NCBI GenBank assembly: GCA_036556025.1
Contig: DATBKD010000046.1
Location: 4,718-68,717, forward strand
Direction: 5' to 3'
DNA length: 64,000 nt
DNA from: Gemmatimonadales bacterium
Lineage (GTDB): Bacteria > Gemmatimonadota > Gemmatimonadetes > Gemmatimonadales > GWC2-71-9
Below the pieces are notes generated by a model that saw nothing but the letters and a program-made list of their open reading frames with translations, was not told the origin of the DNA and searched no databases. Positions 1 to 60,921 of the stretch are shown here, in pieces (the first letter of the stretch is position 1; every line of letters begins with the position of its first letter). The position numbers and the translations under genes are program-made.

Positions 1-47
1 TTCACGTGTCACTCTTCACGCTTTTGCAGTTCACGGTTCACGGTCCT
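1..47. repeat. Degenerate tandem heptamers of the GTTCACG family, probably one arm of an array cut by the window edge
   Basis: Read directly with 7-nt periodicity: ttcacgt gtcactc ttcacgc ttttgca gttcacg gttcacg. Same unit family as the right arms at 30811-30838 and 48061-48080. Overlaps the stop codon (38-40) of the minus-strand gene. Confidence 0.5.
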
Positions 48-589
48 TCCCGCCCCATCTTCTTCTTCAGGTACGCCAGTTGGGCCTCGATGGCATTTTG
101 CAGCCGTTGCTGGTCTACGTCTCGCTCGAGCTGATCGTCCCGATTCGGGCGAGCTCCGCCGGCCGATTCGAGATCGCGCCAGGCAGCTTCCACCGAATCG
201 GAGGTGCGGCCTGACGCGGCCGCGCGATATTGGGTGGACATCTCCTCGATCTCGCGCTGAGCCAGAGCAAGCTCTTCGTGCTGCACGGCGATCTTGCGAG
301 TCAGGACTTCAACCCTCGAGCGATGCCGCTCGGCATAGCGCTCGGCCAGTGCCACCGTCTCTGCATCGGGTACGGCGGCTGCCAGTCGCCCCCGGCGCTC
401 GGCGTCTTCCAGCATCTTCCGCTCGGTCGCGAGCTCCCGCTCCGACGCGGACAGCGACTCCTGCATGGTCGTCAGGCCTACCTTGGCCTCGAGGAGCGCT
501 TCCCGGAGCCCAGCCGCATAGCCTCGGGGATCGGAGGACGTGTGGTCGCGCAGGAGCTTGTCCAGCCGGGCCTTCAGCCCGTCGAACAC
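38..589 (-). CDS. Coiled-coil protein of unknown function (possibly PspA/IM30-like)
   Basis: 183-aa ORF with G/C-rich third positions. Charged heptad-like sequence throughout. The N-terminus MFDGLKARLDKLL resembles PspA-type starts, but no motif allows a firm family call. Confidence 0.55.
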   Translation of the reverse strand: MFDGLKARLDKLLRDHTSSDPRGYAAGLREALLEAKVGLTTMQESLSASERELATERKMLEDAERRGRLAAAVPDAETVALAERYAERHRSRVEVLTRKIAVQHEELALAQREIEEMSTQYRAAASGRTSDSVEAAWRDLESAGGARPNRDDQLERDVDQQRLQNAIEAQLAYLKKKMGREGP

Positions 590-812
590 GGCGGCCGTCT
601 TCCTGTCATGGCTGACACCTCTGGGGAAACGACGCTCGGGGGAGCGTCGGATGGCCCCCCATTGGGAGGCCGATGCTCAAGCGAATTCCAATGTTAGGAG
701 CGCGAGGAGGGAGGGTCAAGCGAACTGGCCGCCGGGCGCGCTCCCGCTCTTCCCACCGCTCTCCAGTATCACTACAGTACCTGAACCTTGGTCCCAATAC
801 CCCCGGGAGACG

Positions 813-1289
813 ATGCCCCCATCCACATGCAGCATGTGCGCCGAGATCGCGGGACGCATCATTGCTCCTGGAGGTGTTATTCATGAAGACGAGTTCTGGA
901 TCGTCAGCCACCACACCGGCCCGTTCACTGACCCGGGGGAGCTGATGGTGAAGGCCCGGCGACACAGCGAATCCGTCGCCGAGCTGACCCCCTCCGAAGC
1001 CGCCGCACTGGGCCCGGTGCTGCGCGCCGCGGTGACGGCCATCGAGCATGTCGTCCGCCCGGAGCGGGTGTACGTGGCGAGCTACGGCGAGCGGCAACGC
1101 CACCTCCATTTCTTCCTGCTCCCCCGCACCGCCAACCTTCCCGCCGGCCATATCGTGTCCGACGTGTACCGTCGCGCCCGCACCGTATTGCGCCGCTGGG
1201 GACTGGCGCAGAATCCGGCCGCTGAGGCTCGGGCTCAGGTTGCGGGCCGCATCCGGGAAGATCCCGCATGGAAGATGTTGAACACCTGA
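813..1289 (+). CDS. HIT (histidine triad) family protein
   Basis: In-frame ATG at 813 inside track ORF 540..1289. The upstream part is Arg/Pro/Ser-rich and non-protein-like. Motifs: CSMCAEI (the Cys motif at HIT N-termini) and RHLHFFLLPR (degenerate HxHxHxx triad). Confidence 0.75.
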   Translation: MPPSTCSMCAEIAGRIIAPGGVIHEDEFWIVSHHTGPFTDPGELMVKARRHSESVAELTPSEAAALGPVLRAAVTAIEHVVRPERVYVASYGERQRHLHFFLLPRTANLPAGHIVSDVYRRARTVLRRWGLAQNPAAEARAQVAGRIREDPAWKMLNT

Positions 1290-2308
1290 TCGTGGGTGCC
1301 GGCCCGGCCGGTCTTCGCGCCGCCCAGGTGCTGGCCGAGGCTGGGCGGGAAGTGCTGGTGTTGGAGAAGCGACCCGACATCGGCCCCAAGACCTGCGCGG
1401 GTGGGCTCACCCTCAAGACCATGAACCGGTTGGAGCGGCTCGGGCTTCCTCGAGACGTGCCCCTCCGCAGCGTGGGCCATGTCGCCTTCACCGGACACCG
1501 AGCGGTGGCGCTGGATCAGAAGCTCACCGTGGTCTATACCCTGCCCCGCCGACAACTGGGCCAGTACCAGCTCACCTGGTGCCGCAACGCGGGGGCGGAG
1601 GTCTGCGCCGGCGTCGCGGTGCGCGAGATCGACGTCGCCGGTCGGACGGTGGGCTGTGATGGGCGACGGATCCGTTGGCATCACCTCATCGGCGCCGATG
1701 GAGCCGACTCCGGAGTCCGGCGCGCGCTAGGCTTGCCTTCGCCCCGCGAGTACTTCGCGGCGGAATACAACATCCCCGCGATGCGGCTCGAGCCCTTGCG
1801 AGTCGAGTGTGATCCTGGTGCCTTGAGGAACGGGTACTTCTGGGTCTTCCCTCACACCGCGTATACCTCGATCGGCGCGGTTGCCCCCAAACACCTTGTC
1901 CCACCATCCACGCTTCGGCGTTACCTGGACGGCCGGCTAGCGGCACTCGGCGTCTCTTCCGCCGGGGCACCCTTCGAAGGTGCCACCCTGGAGGTGGAGT
2001 TCCGCGGGTTTCATTTCCCCGGCCAGGTTCACCTGGCAGGCGACGCTGCTGGTGTGCCCTCCTCACTGACCGCCGAGGGGATCTATGCCGCCCTCATCAC
2101 AGGCGAAGACGTGGCGCGAAGCATCCTTGAACCTTCCTACCCGACCACCGACACGAGCAGCTGGCTGCGGGCGAAGCGGAGGCATGATCGGCTGGCGCGC
2201 TTCATGTCCTCGCGGATGGGCCGAGCGATGGCGTTTCCGATCCTGGCGGGGCTGGCCTGGCTCCCCCCGGTCCGACGTCCAATGGCGGAGTGGTTCCTGG
2301 GCGGTTGA
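1268..2308 (+). CDS. FAD-dependent oxidoreductase, geranylgeranyl reductase family
   Basis: N-terminal Rossmann motif LIVGAGPAGLRAAQVLAEAGREVLVLEK. 346 aa. A GD(A/S)AG-like region (LAGDAAGV) is typical of this flavoprotein family. Confidence 0.8.
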   Translation: MEDVEHLIVGAGPAGLRAAQVLAEAGREVLVLEKRPDIGPKTCAGGLTLKTMNRLERLGLPRDVPLRSVGHVAFTGHRAVALDQKLTVVYTLPRRQLGQYQLTWCRNAGAEVCAGVAVREIDVAGRTVGCDGRRIRWHHLIGADGADSGVRRALGLPSPREYFAAEYNIPAMRLEPLRVECDPGALRNGYFWVFPHTAYTSIGAVAPKHLVPPSTLRRYLDGRLAALGVSSAGAPFEGATLEVEFRGFHFPGQVHLAGDAAGVPSSLTAEGIYAALITGEDVARSILEPSYPTTDTSSWLRAKRRHDRLARFMSSRMGRAMAFPILAGLAWLPPVRRPMAEWFLGG

Positions 2309-59113: not shown

Positions 59114-59366
59114 GGGAGGCTCCTTGAACGTGTTCGGCTACCACCCGGACGCGATTATCGACTACCTGAAGAAATCCACCCCGAACGGCGAAGCGATCGA
59201 CCTGCTCCGCGCGGCGTACCGTCAACGTGCCCTCGCCCAGCAGGGTCATGAACGGTGCATGATTGGGCAGAATACCGACCTGACCATCGAACGCGGGCGC
59301 GATCACCGCGTCGGCATCGCCGTCGAACATAGAGGCCTCGGGGGAGATTACCGTGACTCGCATCAC
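59103..59366 (-). CDS. atpC: F1 ATP synthase epsilon subunit, short form (beta-sandwich only)
   Basis: [38 protein letters not shown] matches the epsilon N-terminal domain. Only 87 aa. The start overlaps the atpD stop. Confidence 0.8.
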
Positions 59367-60823
59367 GAGCTCGCGAGCTTCTTCGACTTCTCCACCGCTT
59401 CGTCGATACCGCCGACCATATAGAAGGCCTGCTCGGGCAACTGATCGAACTCGCCGGACAGAACCCGCTCGAAGCTGACGATAGTGTCGTCCAGCTTGAC
59501 GTACTTGCCCGGGAAGCCGGTGAATTGCTCGGCGACGAAGAAGGGCTGGGACAGGAAGCGCTGAAGCCGGCGAGCCCGCCCCACGATCTGCTTGTCCTCC
59601 TCGCTCAGCTCGTCCATGCCCAGAATGGCGATGATGTCCTGCAGCGCCTTGTAGCGCTGCAACGTGCGCTGCACCCCGATGGCGACGTCGTAGTGCCGCT
59701 GGCCGACGAACTGGGGATCGAGAATCCGGCTCGAGCTGTCCAGCGGATCGACTGCGGGATAGATCCCCAGCTCGGAGATGGCGCGAGACAGCACCACGGT
59801 CGCGTCGAGGTGGGCAAAGGCCGTCGCCGGTGCCGGATCGGTCAGGTCGTCGGCCGGAACGTAGATGGCCTGCACCGAGGTGATCGAGCCCTTGGTGGTG
59901 GAGGTGATCCGCTCCTGCAGGTCACCCATCTCGGTGGCCAGGGTCGGCTGATAGCCCACCGCGCTCGGCATCCGGCCCAGGAGAGCGGAGACCTCGGAGC
60001 CGGCCTGCGTGAAGCGGAAGATGTTGTCGATGAAGAGCAGCACGTCCTGGCCTTCGACGTCGCGGAAATATTCGGCGACGGTGAGACCCGTGAGCCCGAC
60101 CCGAAGCCGGGCCCCCGGCGGCTCGTTCATCTGGCCGTAGATCAGGGCCACGTTGGGCAGAATCTTCGATTCCTCGAACTCGAGATAGAGGTCGTTCCCC
60201 TCGCGGGTCCGCTCCCCCACCCCGCAGAACACCGAGCGGCCGCCGTGTGCCTTGGCGACGTTGTTGATCAGCTCCTGGATGACGACCGTCTTGCCCACGC
60301 CCGCGCCGCCGAAGAGACCGATCTTGCCGCCCTTCACGAAAGGCGCGATCAGGTCGATCACCTTGATGCCGGTCTCGAAGATCTCGGTCTTGGGCTCCAG
60401 GTCGGTAAACCGCGGTGTCTCCCGGTGGATCGGCCAGCGCTCGGTGTCAGGCGGGAGCGCCGGGCCGCCGTCCACCGGCTCGCCCAGCACGTTCAGAATC
60501 CGACCCAGCGGCGCGTTGCCCACCGGGGCCGTGATCGGTCCGCCGGTATCGGTCACGTGCATGCCGCGCGTCACGCCGTCGGTCGAGCTCATGGCCACCG
60601 CGCGCACCTGGTTCTGGCCGATGTGCTGCTGGACCTCGGCGGTGAGCTTGACCGCCAAGGTCCCGCTGCTGTCTTCGATTCGCAGCGCGTTATAGATCTC
60701 CGGCAGGTGCTCGGGCTCGAACTCCACATCGAGCACCGGGCCGATCACCTGGACGACTCGGCCGATGTTGTGGGCCTTCTCGCCGGCTGCTTTCTTCTTT
60801 TCGGCTTTGATAGCGGTGGCCAT
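59363..60823 (-). CDS. atpD: F1 ATP synthase beta subunit
   Basis: Walker [10 protein letters not shown]. Also [11 protein letters not shown] and DELSEED motifs. Confidence 0.95.
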
Positions 60824-60876
60824 CTGATCTAAACTCCCGAGTAATGTCTATTTGGTCTCTGGGCGGCAGAGGCGGT

Positions 60877-60921
60877 CCTTACCGTCTTTACCGCCCTTCC
60901 CGTCTTTACCGTCCTTACCGT
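60877..60921. repeat. Five tandem nonamers (minus-strand reading ACGGTAAGG ACGGTAAAG ACGGGAAGG GCGGTAAAG ACGGTAAGG) between atpG and atpD
   Basis: Counted directly. The array abuts the atpG stop codon (60923-60925). The unit is a rotation/variant of GGGCGGTAA at 51679-51732, in the opposite orientation. Confidence 0.8.

What the first reader, a model, noticed from the sequence alone, without database searches (positions are those of the whole stretch)
1..60921. Three families of 7/9-nt tandem units recur at about 10 of about 33 intergenic gaps, always anchored on a stop codon and never in divergent promoter gaps
Loci, by unit family:
- GTTCACG type: 1-47
- AGCTRWY type: 12729-12811
- GACAGCT/TACTTCT type: 14338-14384
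- CGGTRAA type: 28296-28373
- ACGTGAA/TTCACGT type: 30767-30838
- AGCTAAC/AGCTGTT type: 39572-39702
- ACCGTGA/ACGGTAA type: 48003-48080
- GGGCGGTCA type: 50957-50979
- nonamers followed by AGCTGWT heptamers: 51643-51910
- ACGGTAAGG type, opposite orientation: 60877-60921

Every array begins within 0-5 nt of, or includes, a stop codon. The pdhA TAA lies in cggTAAa, the hisIE TAG in gTAGctaac, and the atpG TAG abuts its array.

None of the six divergent (promoter-only) gaps contains an array: 590-812, 4771-4892, 13039-13113, 35517-35706, 38830-38929 and 55851-56014.

This positional bias points to a function, or at least a tolerance, tied to 3' ends. Possible roles are terminators or attenuators without U-tracts, RNA stabilising or processing elements, or protein-binding sites. 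The system appears to be undescribed.
Basis: seen in the sequence. Interest (0 to 1): 0.75.

Follow-up and report, generated by a model that had tools for sequence, protein, structure and literature searches.

The report
Heptamer-repeat hairpins filling gene junctions
In this uncultured Gemmatimonadales genome, many gaps between genes consist of short 7- or 9-base tandem repeats, usually as two complementary arrays that fold into a long hairpin running from a stop codon almost to the next start codon; this kind of bacterial repeat is already known, its function is still unknown, and it had apparently not been reported in this phylum.

Summary
Period-7 and period-9 arrays sit at all ten listed loci, far above chance. 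All 7-mer arrays are intergenic. Nine of ten touch a true stop codon, and none lies in a divergent gap.

Six loci are inverted pairs of complementary arrays that form 25-60 bp hairpins.

Comparison with 92 related Gemmatimonadales loci shows that these hairpins are lineage-specific, fast-evolving insertions. The junctions they occupy are 0-4 nt long in most relatives (pdhA|pdhB, hisIE|dnaE). They start at about -1 nt from the stop codon and end about 15 nt before the next start.

In the clade the same arrays also occur in frame inside coding linkers (E2, LipB, DnaE). They sit inside the pdh and atp operons and lack U-tracts, so they are not efficient terminators.

The kind is already described: heptameric long SSRs/STRR (Mazel 1990, Mrazek 2007), and Xanthomonas/Nostoc arrays with the same positional bias and inverted pairs (Rehm 2015).

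My best reading is a slippage-type, self-complementary repeat tolerated only where it does no harm. A 3' stem-loop role for the RNA is possible but unproven. I class it as a new member of a known kind, of moderate interest.

The parts
1..47 (-). Partial array of CGTGAAC/CGTGAA units downstream of gene 38-589(-). The gene's TGA (38-40) lies inside the first unit. The locus is cut by the window edge, so any inverted partner is unseen.
12729..12811 (+). Hairpin made of two arrays in a convergent gap. The left arm (GGCTATC GGCTATC AGCTAAG) supplies the last 6 codons and the TAA of gene 11789-12748. The right arm is TAGCTGA x2.9 (12792-12811).
   Evidence: I12, I20; -42.7 kcal/mol, z -4.95
14337..14384 (+). 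Direct arrays only: GCTGACA x4.4 followed by CTTACTT x2.3. They lie 117 nt after the stop of the DAO-type oxidoreductase gene. This is the one locus not anchored on a stop codon, and it has no significant fold.
   Evidence: (z -0.19)
28296..28373 (+). pdhA|pdhB junction hairpin. The CGGTRAA-type array begins at the pdhA last codon plus TAA. The inverted array ends 8 nt before the pdhB ATG.
   Evidence: (-36.8, z -5.3)
30767..30842 (+). E2|lpd junction hairpin: CGTGAAA x3.9, a 16-nt loop, then TTCACGT x4.4. It starts 2 nt after the E2 TGA and ends 17 nt before the lpd GTG.
   Evidence: I9; -41.6, z -7.2
39572..39709 (+). hisIE|dnaE junction hairpin: AGCTAAC x5.7 (its first unit holds the hisIE TAG), a 40-nt spacer, then GTTAGCT x8.3. 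In most relatives this junction is 2-12 nt long.
   Evidence: I1-I7; -83.5, z -9.4
48002..48080 (.). Convergent-gap hairpin between the M23 peptidase gene (+) and the LemA gene (-). The terminator-like core at 48028-48058 (10-bp GC stem flanked by A and T runs) is extended outwards by ACGGTAA/TTCACGG heptamer units.
   Evidence: I8; -44.0, z -7.2
50955..51078 (+). Nonamer inverted pair. The left arm (GGGCGGTCA x2.6) starts 2 nt after the TGA at 50952-54. The right arm (CTCACCGCC x3, 51048-51078) lies in the signal-peptide codons of the DsbA-like gene. That gene's start (51013) is in the loop.
   Evidence: I10; -60.6, z -3.5
51642..51734 (+). GGGCGGTMA x10.3 nonamer array directly after the DsbA-like gene's TGA. 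It is the longest canonical G-quadruplex motif in the window.
51738..51908 (.). AGCTGWT x24.4 heptamer array that fills the rest of the convergent gap. On the minus strand its last unit holds the TAA of the Rce1-like gene (51902-04). The + strand RNA is self-complementary through G.U pairs.
   Evidence: (-117.6 against -46.6 kcal/mol)
60875..60924 (-). ACGGTAAGG-type nonamer array x5.6 between atpG and atpD, starting 1 nt after the atpG TAG. It is a direct array with no partner.
   Evidence: (z -2.35)
42512..42608 (+). Related element inside a gene: a decayed nonamer inverted pair forming an in-frame 48-nt insertion in the DnaE linker. It is sharper in relatives L002 and L003 and absent from most others.
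   Evidence: (I5)

Best explanation
These are heptamer (less often octamer or nonamer) simple-sequence arrays of the long-known STRR / long-SSR kind, here in an uncultured Gemmatimonadales genome.

The usual unit of organisation is not one array but two arrays of complementary units facing each other. The whole insert is therefore a 25-60 bp stem-loop.

I propose that the inserts arise and are kept homogeneous at the DNA level. The steps would be slipped-strand gain and loss of 7-nt units, plus inverted copying between the arms. These steps are inferred, not shown.

Where the inserts are found reflects where such a self-folding insert does no harm:
- between a stop codon and the next ribosome-binding site;
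- between convergent stop codons;
- in frame in disordered protein linkers or a signal peptide;
- never in promoter-only gaps.

The 'anchoring' on stop codons has two causes, both shown. First, the insert fills the whole junction, which is 0-4 nt long where it is absent. Second, units carrying TAA/TGA/TAG end any ORF that runs into them within three units.

If transcribed, the hairpin would bring the upstream stop and the downstream start back together at its base. It could act as a barrier to 3' exonucleases or as an RNase III substrate. It cannot be an efficient terminator. These RNA-level effects are inference only.
For: Period specificity and intergenic location.

Hairpin architecture, z -3.5 to -9.4.

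Insertion character:
- hisIE|dnaE is 2-12 nt in 7 relatives, 167 nt here, and 75 nt with a different unit in L002.
- pdhA|pdhB is under 40 nt (mostly -1 to 4) in 67 of 75 loci; pdhB|E2 is short in 55 of 63. The long versions are array hairpins with lineage-specific units.

Placement: the left arm starts a median of -1 nt from the stop, and the right arm ends a median of 15 nt before the next start.

ORFs ending inside the array: the ancestral PdhA end is ...DVLAD* with a TGATG overlap. In L082 and L089 the ORF runs through two units and stops at the first in-frame TGA/TAA. The same happens at window 12729-12748.

Tolerance rather than 3'-end specificity:
- In-frame 7-mer arrays occur in both E2 linkers and in LipB.
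- 9-mer pairs occur in the DnaE linker, always as insertions of 48-54 nt.
- One arm lies in a signal peptide.
- Arrays are found in 0 of 48 divergent gaps.

Fast unit-wise turnover: indels of 7, 20, 6 and 7 nt are confined to arrays between 96%-identical loci. The element at the pdhA|pdhB junction has clearly diverged in L082, the closest relative (96% PdhB identity, about 85% nt identity).

No excess of G.U pairs on the sense strand: G.T 21 against A.C 46 among 956 stem positions.

Not terminators: operon-internal positions and no T tracts.

The same architecture occurs in a Nitrospirae MAG. The same positional statistics were published for Xanthomonas.
Against: - Purely local slippage does not explain why the same few unit families recur at unlinked loci in one genome. 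CGGTRAA/CGTGAAA occurs at 5 loci, AGCTNNN at 4 and GGGCGGTMA at 2. It also does not explain why related genomes share these families.
- The two arms stay complementary while the unit changes between lineages. In E2 they do so across about 250 nt of conserved coding sequence. This needs either selection for pairing or an arm-to-arm copying process that I have not demonstrated.
- A permutation test found no base-by-base mirroring beyond the shared unit (0 of 14 significant).
- The hairpins have a strong polarity: the 5' arm is purine-rich in 49 of 58. A symmetric neutral process does not predict this.
- The E2|lpd hairpin persists across deep divergence (18 of 26 long gaps), which hints at maintenance.
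- The preference for 7 nt is unexplained. There are no expression data.
Confidence: 0.55

Rival explanations
1. The hairpins are selected RNA elements. They would be 3'/intercistronic stem-loops that stabilise the upstream cistron against 3'-5' exonucleases, serve as RNase III processing sites, or tune translation of the neighbouring cistrons, in the way REP elements do in E. coli. Heptamer slippage would only be the way the stems grow.
For: - The stems are long and near-perfect, and they start at the stop codon.
- Arm complementarity is kept while the unit sequence changes between lineages.
- A hairpin is present at E2|lpd in most lineages with a long gap. In some of them it is a plain GC hairpin rather than arrays.
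- The 24-unit AGCUGWU array is self-complementary only as + strand RNA, the sense strand of the upstream gene: -117.6 against -46.6 kcal/mol, with 24 G.U pairs.
- The polarity, purine arm first and U/C-rich arm last, is what transcription-linked hairpins would show.
Against: - There is no G.U enrichment on the sense strand in 26 oriented hairpins; A.C mismatches outnumber G.T by 46 to 21.
- In several window hairpins the antisense RNA folds better.
- Most relatives do without the element at pdhA|pdhB, pdhB|E2 and hisIE|dnaE.
- The same arrays occur inside coding regions, where ribosomes would melt them.
- Four of ten window loci are direct arrays with no significant fold.
Confidence: 0.2
2. 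The arrays are multivalent binding sites for a protein, or an RNA-protein complex, that reads a 7-nt register on DNA or RNA. This is the idea proposed for TAACTGA repeats in Beggiatoaceae and for heptamers in Nostoc.
For: - The period is fixed while copy number varies.
- A few unit families are reused at many unlinked loci in one genome and shared with relatives.
- Published speculation exists for other phyla.
Against: - Well over ten unrelated unit sequences occupy the same junctions in related genomes, so no single sequence is recognised.
- Periods of 8 and 9 also occur.
- No candidate binding protein was identified.
- The arrays are dispensable in most relatives.
Confidence: 0.08
3. They are non-autonomous mobile elements, like REPINs or MITEs. 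Their inverted ends would be heptamer arrays, and a transposase encoded elsewhere would copy them between junctions.
For: - They behave as insertions relative to orthologous junctions.
- They come as inverted pairs in extragenic space, as REPINs do.
- The same unit family appears at several loci.
Against: - Spacers and loops share no sequence between copies.
- No terminal consensus or target-site duplication is seen.
- Copy numbers differ between the two arms, 5.7 against 8.3.
- In E2 the two arms flank a conserved protein domain that cannot be element cargo.
- No transposase was seen among the 30 window proteins scanned.
Confidence: 0.07
4. They are intrinsic transcription terminators or attenuators that work without a U-tract.
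For: - The hairpins lie immediately after stop codons and are excluded from promoter gaps.
- The 48002-48080 element has a canonical bidirectional terminator core.
- Some relatives have a T run after the hairpin, for example L089 at E2|lpd.
Against: - They lie between E1 alpha and E1 beta of one enzyme, with 8 nt left before the ATG. They also lie between atpG and atpD and between hisIE and dnaE, all co-transcribed in relatives.
- Five of six hairpins fail the terminator scan.
- A true terminator with a U-tract exists elsewhere in the window (25729-25756) and looks quite different.
Confidence: 0.05

Closest known systems
Heptameric long simple sequence repeats (Mrazek, Guo and Shah 2007) and cyanobacterial STRR heptamers (Mazel et al. 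1990)
   Same: Both are head-to-tail 7-nt units in arrays of 2-25 copies, strongly intergenic and phylogenetically sporadic. Heptamers are the commonest long-SSR class, and polymerase slippage is the proposed origin (as summarised in PMC4679880, and PMC4692102).
   Different: These arrays are in Gemmatimonadota, which no held paper mentions for such repeats. There are several unit families per genome. Most arrays are paired with an inverted copy. Arrays of 7 nt also occur in frame in coding linkers of relatives.
GGGAATC arrays of Xanthomonas and GGGGAYT arrays of Nostoc PCC 7120 (Rehm et al. 2015, PMC4692102)
   Same: The published arrays are 89-93% intergenic, lie a mean of 28 nt from the upstream ORF against 160 nt to the next, are under-represented in divergent gaps, and form 70-75 convergent inverted pairs per genome that could fold as stem-loops. 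They occupy the same gene pairs in sister species but differ in length and sequence, and their function is unknown. The window's GGGCGGTMA x10 array is likewise a canonical G4 motif.
   Different: The heptamer units here (CGGTRAA, CGTGAAA, AGCTAAC) have no G tracts, so G-quadruplexes cannot be the common denominator. There is more than one dominant unit. The arms abut the stop codon directly.
TAACTGA direct repeats of marine Beggiatoaceae, cyanobacteria and Bacteroidetes (MacGregor 2015, PMC4679880)
   Same: Both are heptamers carrying stop codons in all three frames once repeated, so ORFs can overlap them by at most about 18 nt and they necessarily sit at ORF ends. Both are intergenic, and both occur in operons of essential genes.
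   Different: The TAACTGA sets lie mainly just upstream of start codons, are direct (one indirect set in 170), and use one unit per genome.
REP / BIME / REPIN extragenic palindromes of enterobacteria and pseudomonads
   Same: Both are hairpin-forming extragenic elements placed after stop codons and between cistrons and avoided in promoter regions. REPs are known to stabilise upstream mRNA, and when close to a stop codon they affect translation. This comparison rests on my own knowledge and was not tested here.
   Different: REPs have a conserved genome-wide consensus of about 35 nt and a cognate RAYT transposase. Here the arms are simple-sequence arrays with many unit sequences, and no RAYT was seen.
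Intrinsic (Rho-independent) terminators
   Same: Both are a stem-loop directly downstream of a gene. The core at 48028-48058 qualifies.
   Different: The stems here are 25-60 bp instead of 5-12. Loops reach 60 nt. Five of six hairpins have no U-tract. The positions are operon-internal.

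Membership tests
Heptameric long SSR / STRR-type tandem arrays | Head-to-tail repeats of a 7-nt unit, longer than chance allows | tested here: met
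   There are 6 strict period-7 arrays against 0.05 expected, with up to 24.4 copies.
Heptameric long SSR / STRR-type tandem arrays | Predominantly non-coding location | tested here: met
   All strict period-7 arrays lie in the 10% of the window that is non-coding. In relatives some are in frame in linkers.
Heptameric long SSR / STRR-type tandem arrays | Length polymorphism by whole units between close relatives (slippage behaviour) | tested here: inconclusive
   L129 and L131 (96% identical) differ by 7-nt and 20-nt indels confined to arrays. No same-species population data were available for the window's own loci.
Xanthomonas/Nostoc-type G-rich heptamer arrays (Rehm 2015) | Placed close to the end of the upstream ORF, rare in divergent gaps, frequent convergent inverted pairs | tested here: met
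   The left arm starts a median of -1 nt from the stop. Arrays occur in 0 of 48 divergent gaps. Six of 10 window loci are inverted pairs.
Xanthomonas/Nostoc-type G-rich heptamer arrays (Rehm 2015) | Unit with a G3-4 tract, at least 4 units, able to form a G-quadruplex | tested here: not met
   Only the nonamer array at 51643-51726 fits a G4 pattern. The heptamer units CGGTRAA, CGTGAAA and AGCTAAC have no G tract.
TAACTGA-type repeats (MacGregor 2015) | Unit TAACTGA, direct repeats ending a few nt upstream of start codons | tested here: not met
   The units differ. The arrays start at stop codons and end a median of 15 nt before the next start. Most are inverted pairs.
REP / REPIN elements | Conserved consensus sequence shared by all copies in a genome | tested here: not met
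   At least three unit families occur in the window and more than ten in relatives at the same junctions. The loops are unrelated.
REP / REPIN elements | Cognate RAYT (Y1 transposase) gene in the genome | not testable with these tools
   Only 64 kb of the genome is available. None of the 30 window proteins scanned against Pfam is a transposase.
Intrinsic terminators | Short GC-rich stem, 3-8 nt loop, followed by a U-tract | tested here: not met
   Only the core at 48028-48058 and the unrelated site at 25729-25756 match. The hairpins at 12729, 28296, 30767, 39572 and 50955 do not.
Intrinsic terminators | Located at the ends of transcription units | tested here: not met
   The arrays lie inside the pdhA-pdhB-E2-lpd and atpA-G-D operons and between hisIE and dnaE. 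In most relatives these genes abut or overlap.
Curated RNA families (Rfam 15) | Match to a covariance model at gathering score | tested here: not met
   There are no matches in the whole window on either strand.
MITE-like mobile elements | Terminal inverted repeats with target-site duplication, and a conserved internal sequence among copies | tested here: not met
   The copies share no internal sequence. In E2 the arms flank a conserved protein domain.

The most novel reading that the evidence does not exclude
The arrays are the footprint of an unrecognised process or element class that is specific for period and for self-complementarity. It would write matching 7-nt arrays in opposite orientation into any tolerated site, including inside genes.

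In relatives, complementary arrays in the two linkers of the E2 acetyltransferase flank the E3-binding domain and covary across lineages. The arms of the intergenic hairpins covary likewise and show a fixed purine-to-pyrimidine polarity.

If this is not just slippage plus tolerance, two readings remain. One is a dedicated DNA-level mechanism, such as templated or fold-back synthesis, or arm-to-arm conversion. The other is a selected long-range nucleic-acid structure that couples neighbouring cistrons or domain boundaries.
Probability: 0.15. Interest if true: 0.75.

Novelty: new member of a known kind. Interest (0 to 1): 0.45.

Why it matters
Heptamer tandem arrays are the commonest long simple repeats in bacteria. 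They have been known since 1990, yet neither their origin (why 7 nt) nor any function is established.

This lineage offers an unusually clean comparative system:
- The same operon junctions exist with and without the insert.
- The insert always spans stop codon to ribosome-binding site as a hairpin.
- The arms covary.
- The same arrays invade protein linkers in frame.

That makes concrete tests possible: effects on translational coupling, mRNA processing, slippage rates, and arm-to-arm copying.

Practically, these arrays break short-read assemblies and create variable C-terminal tails and linker insertions. Annotators should expect both.

Tried and rejected
- Three-frame stop-barrier idea. Stop triplets are only modestly enriched in 5' arms (4.6 against 2.6 per 100 nt), and only 8 of 30 arms block all three frames. 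Many units in relatives (GGAACGC, ATGCGGA) carry no stop. Rejected as a general rule.
- G.U asymmetry test for RNA-level selection. The result was the opposite of the prediction (G.T 21, A.C 46).
- Permutation test for mirrored unit-variant order between arms. 0 of 14 were significant. The test was underpowered, so I make no claim of base-by-base mirroring.
- Terminator scans and Rfam. Neither found anything at the arrays except the 48028-48058 core.
- Search for copy-number polymorphism among near-identical contigs. Only one informative pair turned up (L129/L131). The L114/L116 difference is an unrelated 29-nt deletion in E2.
- The look-up of encoding contigs with HisIE. It returned only a 3-kb Logan contig that stops at the array.
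- Mrazek 2007 could not be read directly, so I cite it through two papers that summarise it.
- The GC3-only gene map was too crude and was replaced by a codon-model map with Pfam checks.
- CRISPR was dismissed because the units are contiguous with no spacers.
- HutP-like UAG-N4 spacing fits only the AGCTNNN family, so it was not pursued.

Full report
**Origin of the window.** The window is 65% G+C. Its HisIE protein is 70-79% identical to HisIE of uncultured Gemmatimonadales MAGs and far less similar to anything else. PdhB finds soil-metagenome contigs at 77-96% identity. The source is therefore an uncultured member of Gemmatimonadales. I built the gene map from a codon-usage model trained on the window and checked it with Pfam for 30 proteins. 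The genes next to arrays include:
- pdhA, pdhB, E2 and lpd;
- hisIE and dnaE;
- atpA, atpG and atpD;
- an M23 peptidase, LemA, a DsbA-like thioredoxin and an Rce1-like protease.

**Checking the observation.**
- TRF reports arrays at all ten loci.
- A stricter lag-identity scan gives 6 period-7 arrays (0.05 expected from Markov shuffles) and 2 period-9 arrays (0 expected). It gives none for periods 5, 6, 8 or 10-12. All lie in the 10% of the window that is non-coding.
- Nine of the ten loci contain a genuine stop codon or start 0-2 nt after one.
- The exception is 14337-14384, which lies 117 nt from the nearest real stop. No plausible ORF ends there.
- No array lies in any of the six divergent gaps of my map.
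- Within the window the divergent-gap contrast is not significant (0/6 against 10/28, p=0.15). Pooled with 92 related loci it is 0/48 divergent, 8/26 convergent and 43/210 tandem (p=4e-5). Those loci are homologous regions and their gene maps are crude.

Six loci are not single arrays. Each is two arrays of complementary units in inverted orientation around a spacer:
- 12729/12792;
- 28296/28340;
- 30767/30811;
- 39573/39652;
- 48002/48046;
- 50955/51048.

As single strands they fold into 25-60 bp stem-loops with z-scores of -3.5 to -9.4 against dinucleotide shuffles. The 48002-48080 element has a canonical bidirectional terminator core (48028-48058) whose stem is extended outwards by heptamer units. 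The remaining loci (1-47, cut by the window edge; 14337; 51642-51908; 60875) are direct arrays. The 24-unit AGCUGWU array is self-complementary as + strand RNA through 24 G.U pairs (-117.6 against -46.6 kcal/mol for the other strand). The GGGCGGTMA x10 array is the longest G-quadruplex motif in the window.

**Comparative evidence: the hairpins are insertions.**
- hisIE and dnaE are 2-12 nt apart in seven relatives. They are 167 nt apart here and 75 nt apart in L002, which carries a different hairpin built from AGTCAGG units.
- In 81 pdh operons, pdhA|pdhB is under 40 nt (mostly -1 to 4, a TGATG stop/start overlap) in 67 of 75 cases. pdhB|E2 is short in 55 of 63, and E2|lpd in 14 of 40.
- Nearly all long junctions have the form stop codon, array, loop, inverted array. 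Their units differ by lineage: CGTGAAA, TCGTAGG, ACAGTGA, CCGCTAG, GCGTATG, GCTATGA, ATGCGGA, ACGCGGA, TTGCGGA and GGATTGA, with 8-mers in two loci.
- The left arm starts a median of -1 nt from the end of the stop codon. The right arm ends a median of 15 nt before the next start codon. The element is, in effect, the intergenic region.
- The same architecture occurs in other Gemmatimonadales loci and in a Nitrospirae MAG. Period-7 arrays also fill his-operon gaps in Flavobacteriia.

**Why the arrays touch stop codons.** There are two reasons, and both can be seen directly.
- The insert occupies a junction that otherwise has no spare bases.
- Units that carry TAA, TGA or TAG end any ORF that runs into them. 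The ancestral PdhA ends ...DVLAD*. In L082 and L089 the ORF reads through two heptamers and stops at the first in-frame TGA/TAA, giving array-encoded tails (NSVKREP*, KSVNSEQ*). In the window, the last six codons and the TAA of gene 11789-12748 are array units.

MacGregor made this point for TAACTGA. It is not universal, however. Only 8 of 30 5' arms block all three frames, and many units in relatives have no stop triplet.

**The arrays are not confined to 3' ends.**
- In relatives, 7-mer arrays lie in frame inside the E2 gene, in linker 1. Their reverse complement lies in the same linker or in linker 2, about 250 nt away across the E3-binding domain. Examples are L122 (CGGGAAA / TTTCCCG), L132 (GGAGCAG x10 / CCTGCTC), L145 and L120.
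- This complementarity is locus-specific: the own-pair score has a median of 17 against 8 for other loci's partners.
- A direct array sits in frame in LipB.
- Nonamer inverted pairs form 48-54 nt in-frame insertions in the DnaE linker of the window (42512-42608), L002 and L003. Most relatives lack them.
- The right arm of the 50955/51048 pair lies in signal-peptide codons.
- Over all 773 kb examined, period 7 dominates: 166 arrays, against 35 of period 8, 30 of period 9 and 7 of period 6.

**Dynamics.**
- The closest relative, L082, is 96% identical in PdhB and about 85% in nucleotides. It shares the unit family at pdhA|pdhB and E2|lpd, though the elements have diverged. It also has an extra hairpin at pdhB|E2.
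- Two contigs 96% identical to each other differ by indels of 7, 20, 6 and 7 nt, all confined to arrays.
- Across lineages the arms of the E2|lpd hairpin covary. A locus's own right arm is the best partner in 10 of 22 cases and among the top three in 19 of 22.

**Tests bearing on mechanism.**
- In 26 hairpins of known sense orientation, G.T mismatches (21) are fewer than A.C mismatches (46) among 956 aligned stem positions. Tolerance of G.U pairs in the sense transcript is therefore not seen.
- A permutation test found no mirroring of unit variants beyond the shared unit.
- The hairpins have a marked polarity: the 5' arm is purine-rich in 49 of 58. This reads the same from either strand, and I cannot explain it.
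- Terminator consensus is met only by the 48028-48058 core. A classical terminator elsewhere in the window (25729-25756) looks quite different.
- No Rfam family matches.
- The arrays lie between subunits of single enzymes (pdhA|pdhB with 8 nt left before the ATG, and atpG|atpD). Efficient termination is therefore implausible.

**Interpretation.** The best-supported reading (about 0.55) is that these are slippage-type simple-sequence arrays that come as self-complementary pairs. They arise and turn over quickly at the DNA level, and they survive only where a self-folding insert is harmless:
- from stop codon to ribosome-binding site;
- between convergent stops;
- in frame in disordered protein segments.

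A hairpin-shaped insert is the least disruptive kind between translationally coupled genes, because its base brings the stop and the next start together again. That last point is inference.

This reading leaves four things unexplained: the reuse of a few unit families at unlinked loci, the maintained complementarity of the arms, the polarity, and the preference for 7 nt. These keep alive a selected RNA stem-loop role (about 0.2), a binding-site role (about 0.08) and a mobile-element origin (about 0.07). The terminator idea is the least supported (about 0.05).

**Relation to the literature.**
- Heptamers are the most abundant long SSR class in prokaryotes, and polymerase slippage has been proposed as their origin (Mrazek 2007, as summarised).
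- STRR heptamers have been known in cyanobacteria since 1990.
- Rehm et al. 2015 described, for the GGGAATC arrays of Xanthomonas, essentially the same positional statistics and 70-75 inverted pairs per genome. They found no function.
- MacGregor 2015 described TAACTGA arrays and the stop-codon constraint.
- A 2022 preprint reports regulatory effects of heptamer arrays near Nostoc promoters.
- No held paper mentions such arrays in Gemmatimonadota.

The finding is therefore a new member of a known kind whose function is unresolved. The stop-to-RBS hairpin anatomy, the demonstrable insertion character and the in-frame coding copies add useful detail.

Noticed in passing
window 42512-42608 (+), inside dnaE 39742-43269; also L002 13516-13597 and L003 4178-4265: An in-frame 48-54 nt insertion in the DnaE linker is an inverted pair of nonamer arrays. 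In L003 it encodes GEDGEDGED...SRLSDVS. It folds at -69 to -79 kcal/mol. DnaE of L004, L006, L008, L013 and L017 lacks it.
   Followed up: yes
L106-L161, E2 genes (e.g. L122 7267-7296 and 7555-7584; L132 1964-2030 and 2267-2295; L145 2336-2437 and 2589-2617): Heptamer arrays lie in frame in E2 linker 1, with the complementary array in the same linker or in linker 2 across the E3-binding domain. The complementarity is locus-specific and covaries between lineages. The window's own E2 lacks these arrays.
   Followed up: partly
L160 10699-10732, L141 10669-10698, L125 10750-10780, L120 10694-10720 (LipB genes): A direct heptamer array is inserted in frame near the C-terminal part of octanoyltransferase LipB (e.g. 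...VERETGNVKRERDLF...). The unit differs between lineages.
   Followed up: partly
window 51013-51078: The right arm of the nonamer pair (CTCACCGCC x3) encodes the hydrophobic core of the DsbA-like protein's signal peptide (FPAVLTALTAI). The gene's start codon sits in the loop of the predicted hairpin.
   Followed up: partly
window + 92 related loci, 59 intergenic hairpins: The hairpins have a strong polarity: the 5' arm is purine-rich in 49 and pyrimidine-rich in 9. In the 5' arm A:T is 452:259 and G:C is 676:403. The polarity is the same read from either strand. It is unexplained.
   Followed up: partly
L082 and L089, 3' end of pdhA: The PdhA C-terminal tails are encoded by the array itself (NSVKREP*, KSVNSEQ*) in place of the ancestral ...DVLAD*, which has a TGATG stop/start overlap with pdhB.
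   Followed up: yes
L001 (Logan contig SRR11614242_426655): The only public contig encoding an identical HisIE ends 11 nt after the hisIE stop, that is, at the start of the array. Short-read assembly evidently breaks at these repeats.
   Followed up: no
window 25729-25756 (+): A canonical intrinsic terminator (12-bp stem, 10 GC pairs, then TTTTTCTT) follows gene 24461-25702. The lineage therefore does use ordinary U-tract terminators.
   Followed up: no
window 49399-49498: A complex period 6/15/27 repeat (CCGCCACCGCCAAA...) lies inside a minus-strand ORF with no Pfam match and probably encodes a Gly-rich low-complexity protein segment. It is unrelated to the heptamer arrays.
   Followed up: no
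L024 5382-5472 (Nitrospirae MAG); L066 7211-9973 (Kordia): The same architecture occurs in another phylum: stop codon, AAAGGCN x5, inverted TTAGCCN x4, then 16 nt to the next start codon. In Kordia, heptamer arrays fill several his-operon junctions.
   Followed up: partly
L114 ~3308 vs L116 2269-2297: L114 has a 29-nt deletion in the E2 catalytic domain relative to the otherwise 99.6-100% identical L116. It causes a frameshift and is either an assembly error or a pseudogene. It is not array-related.
   Followed up: no
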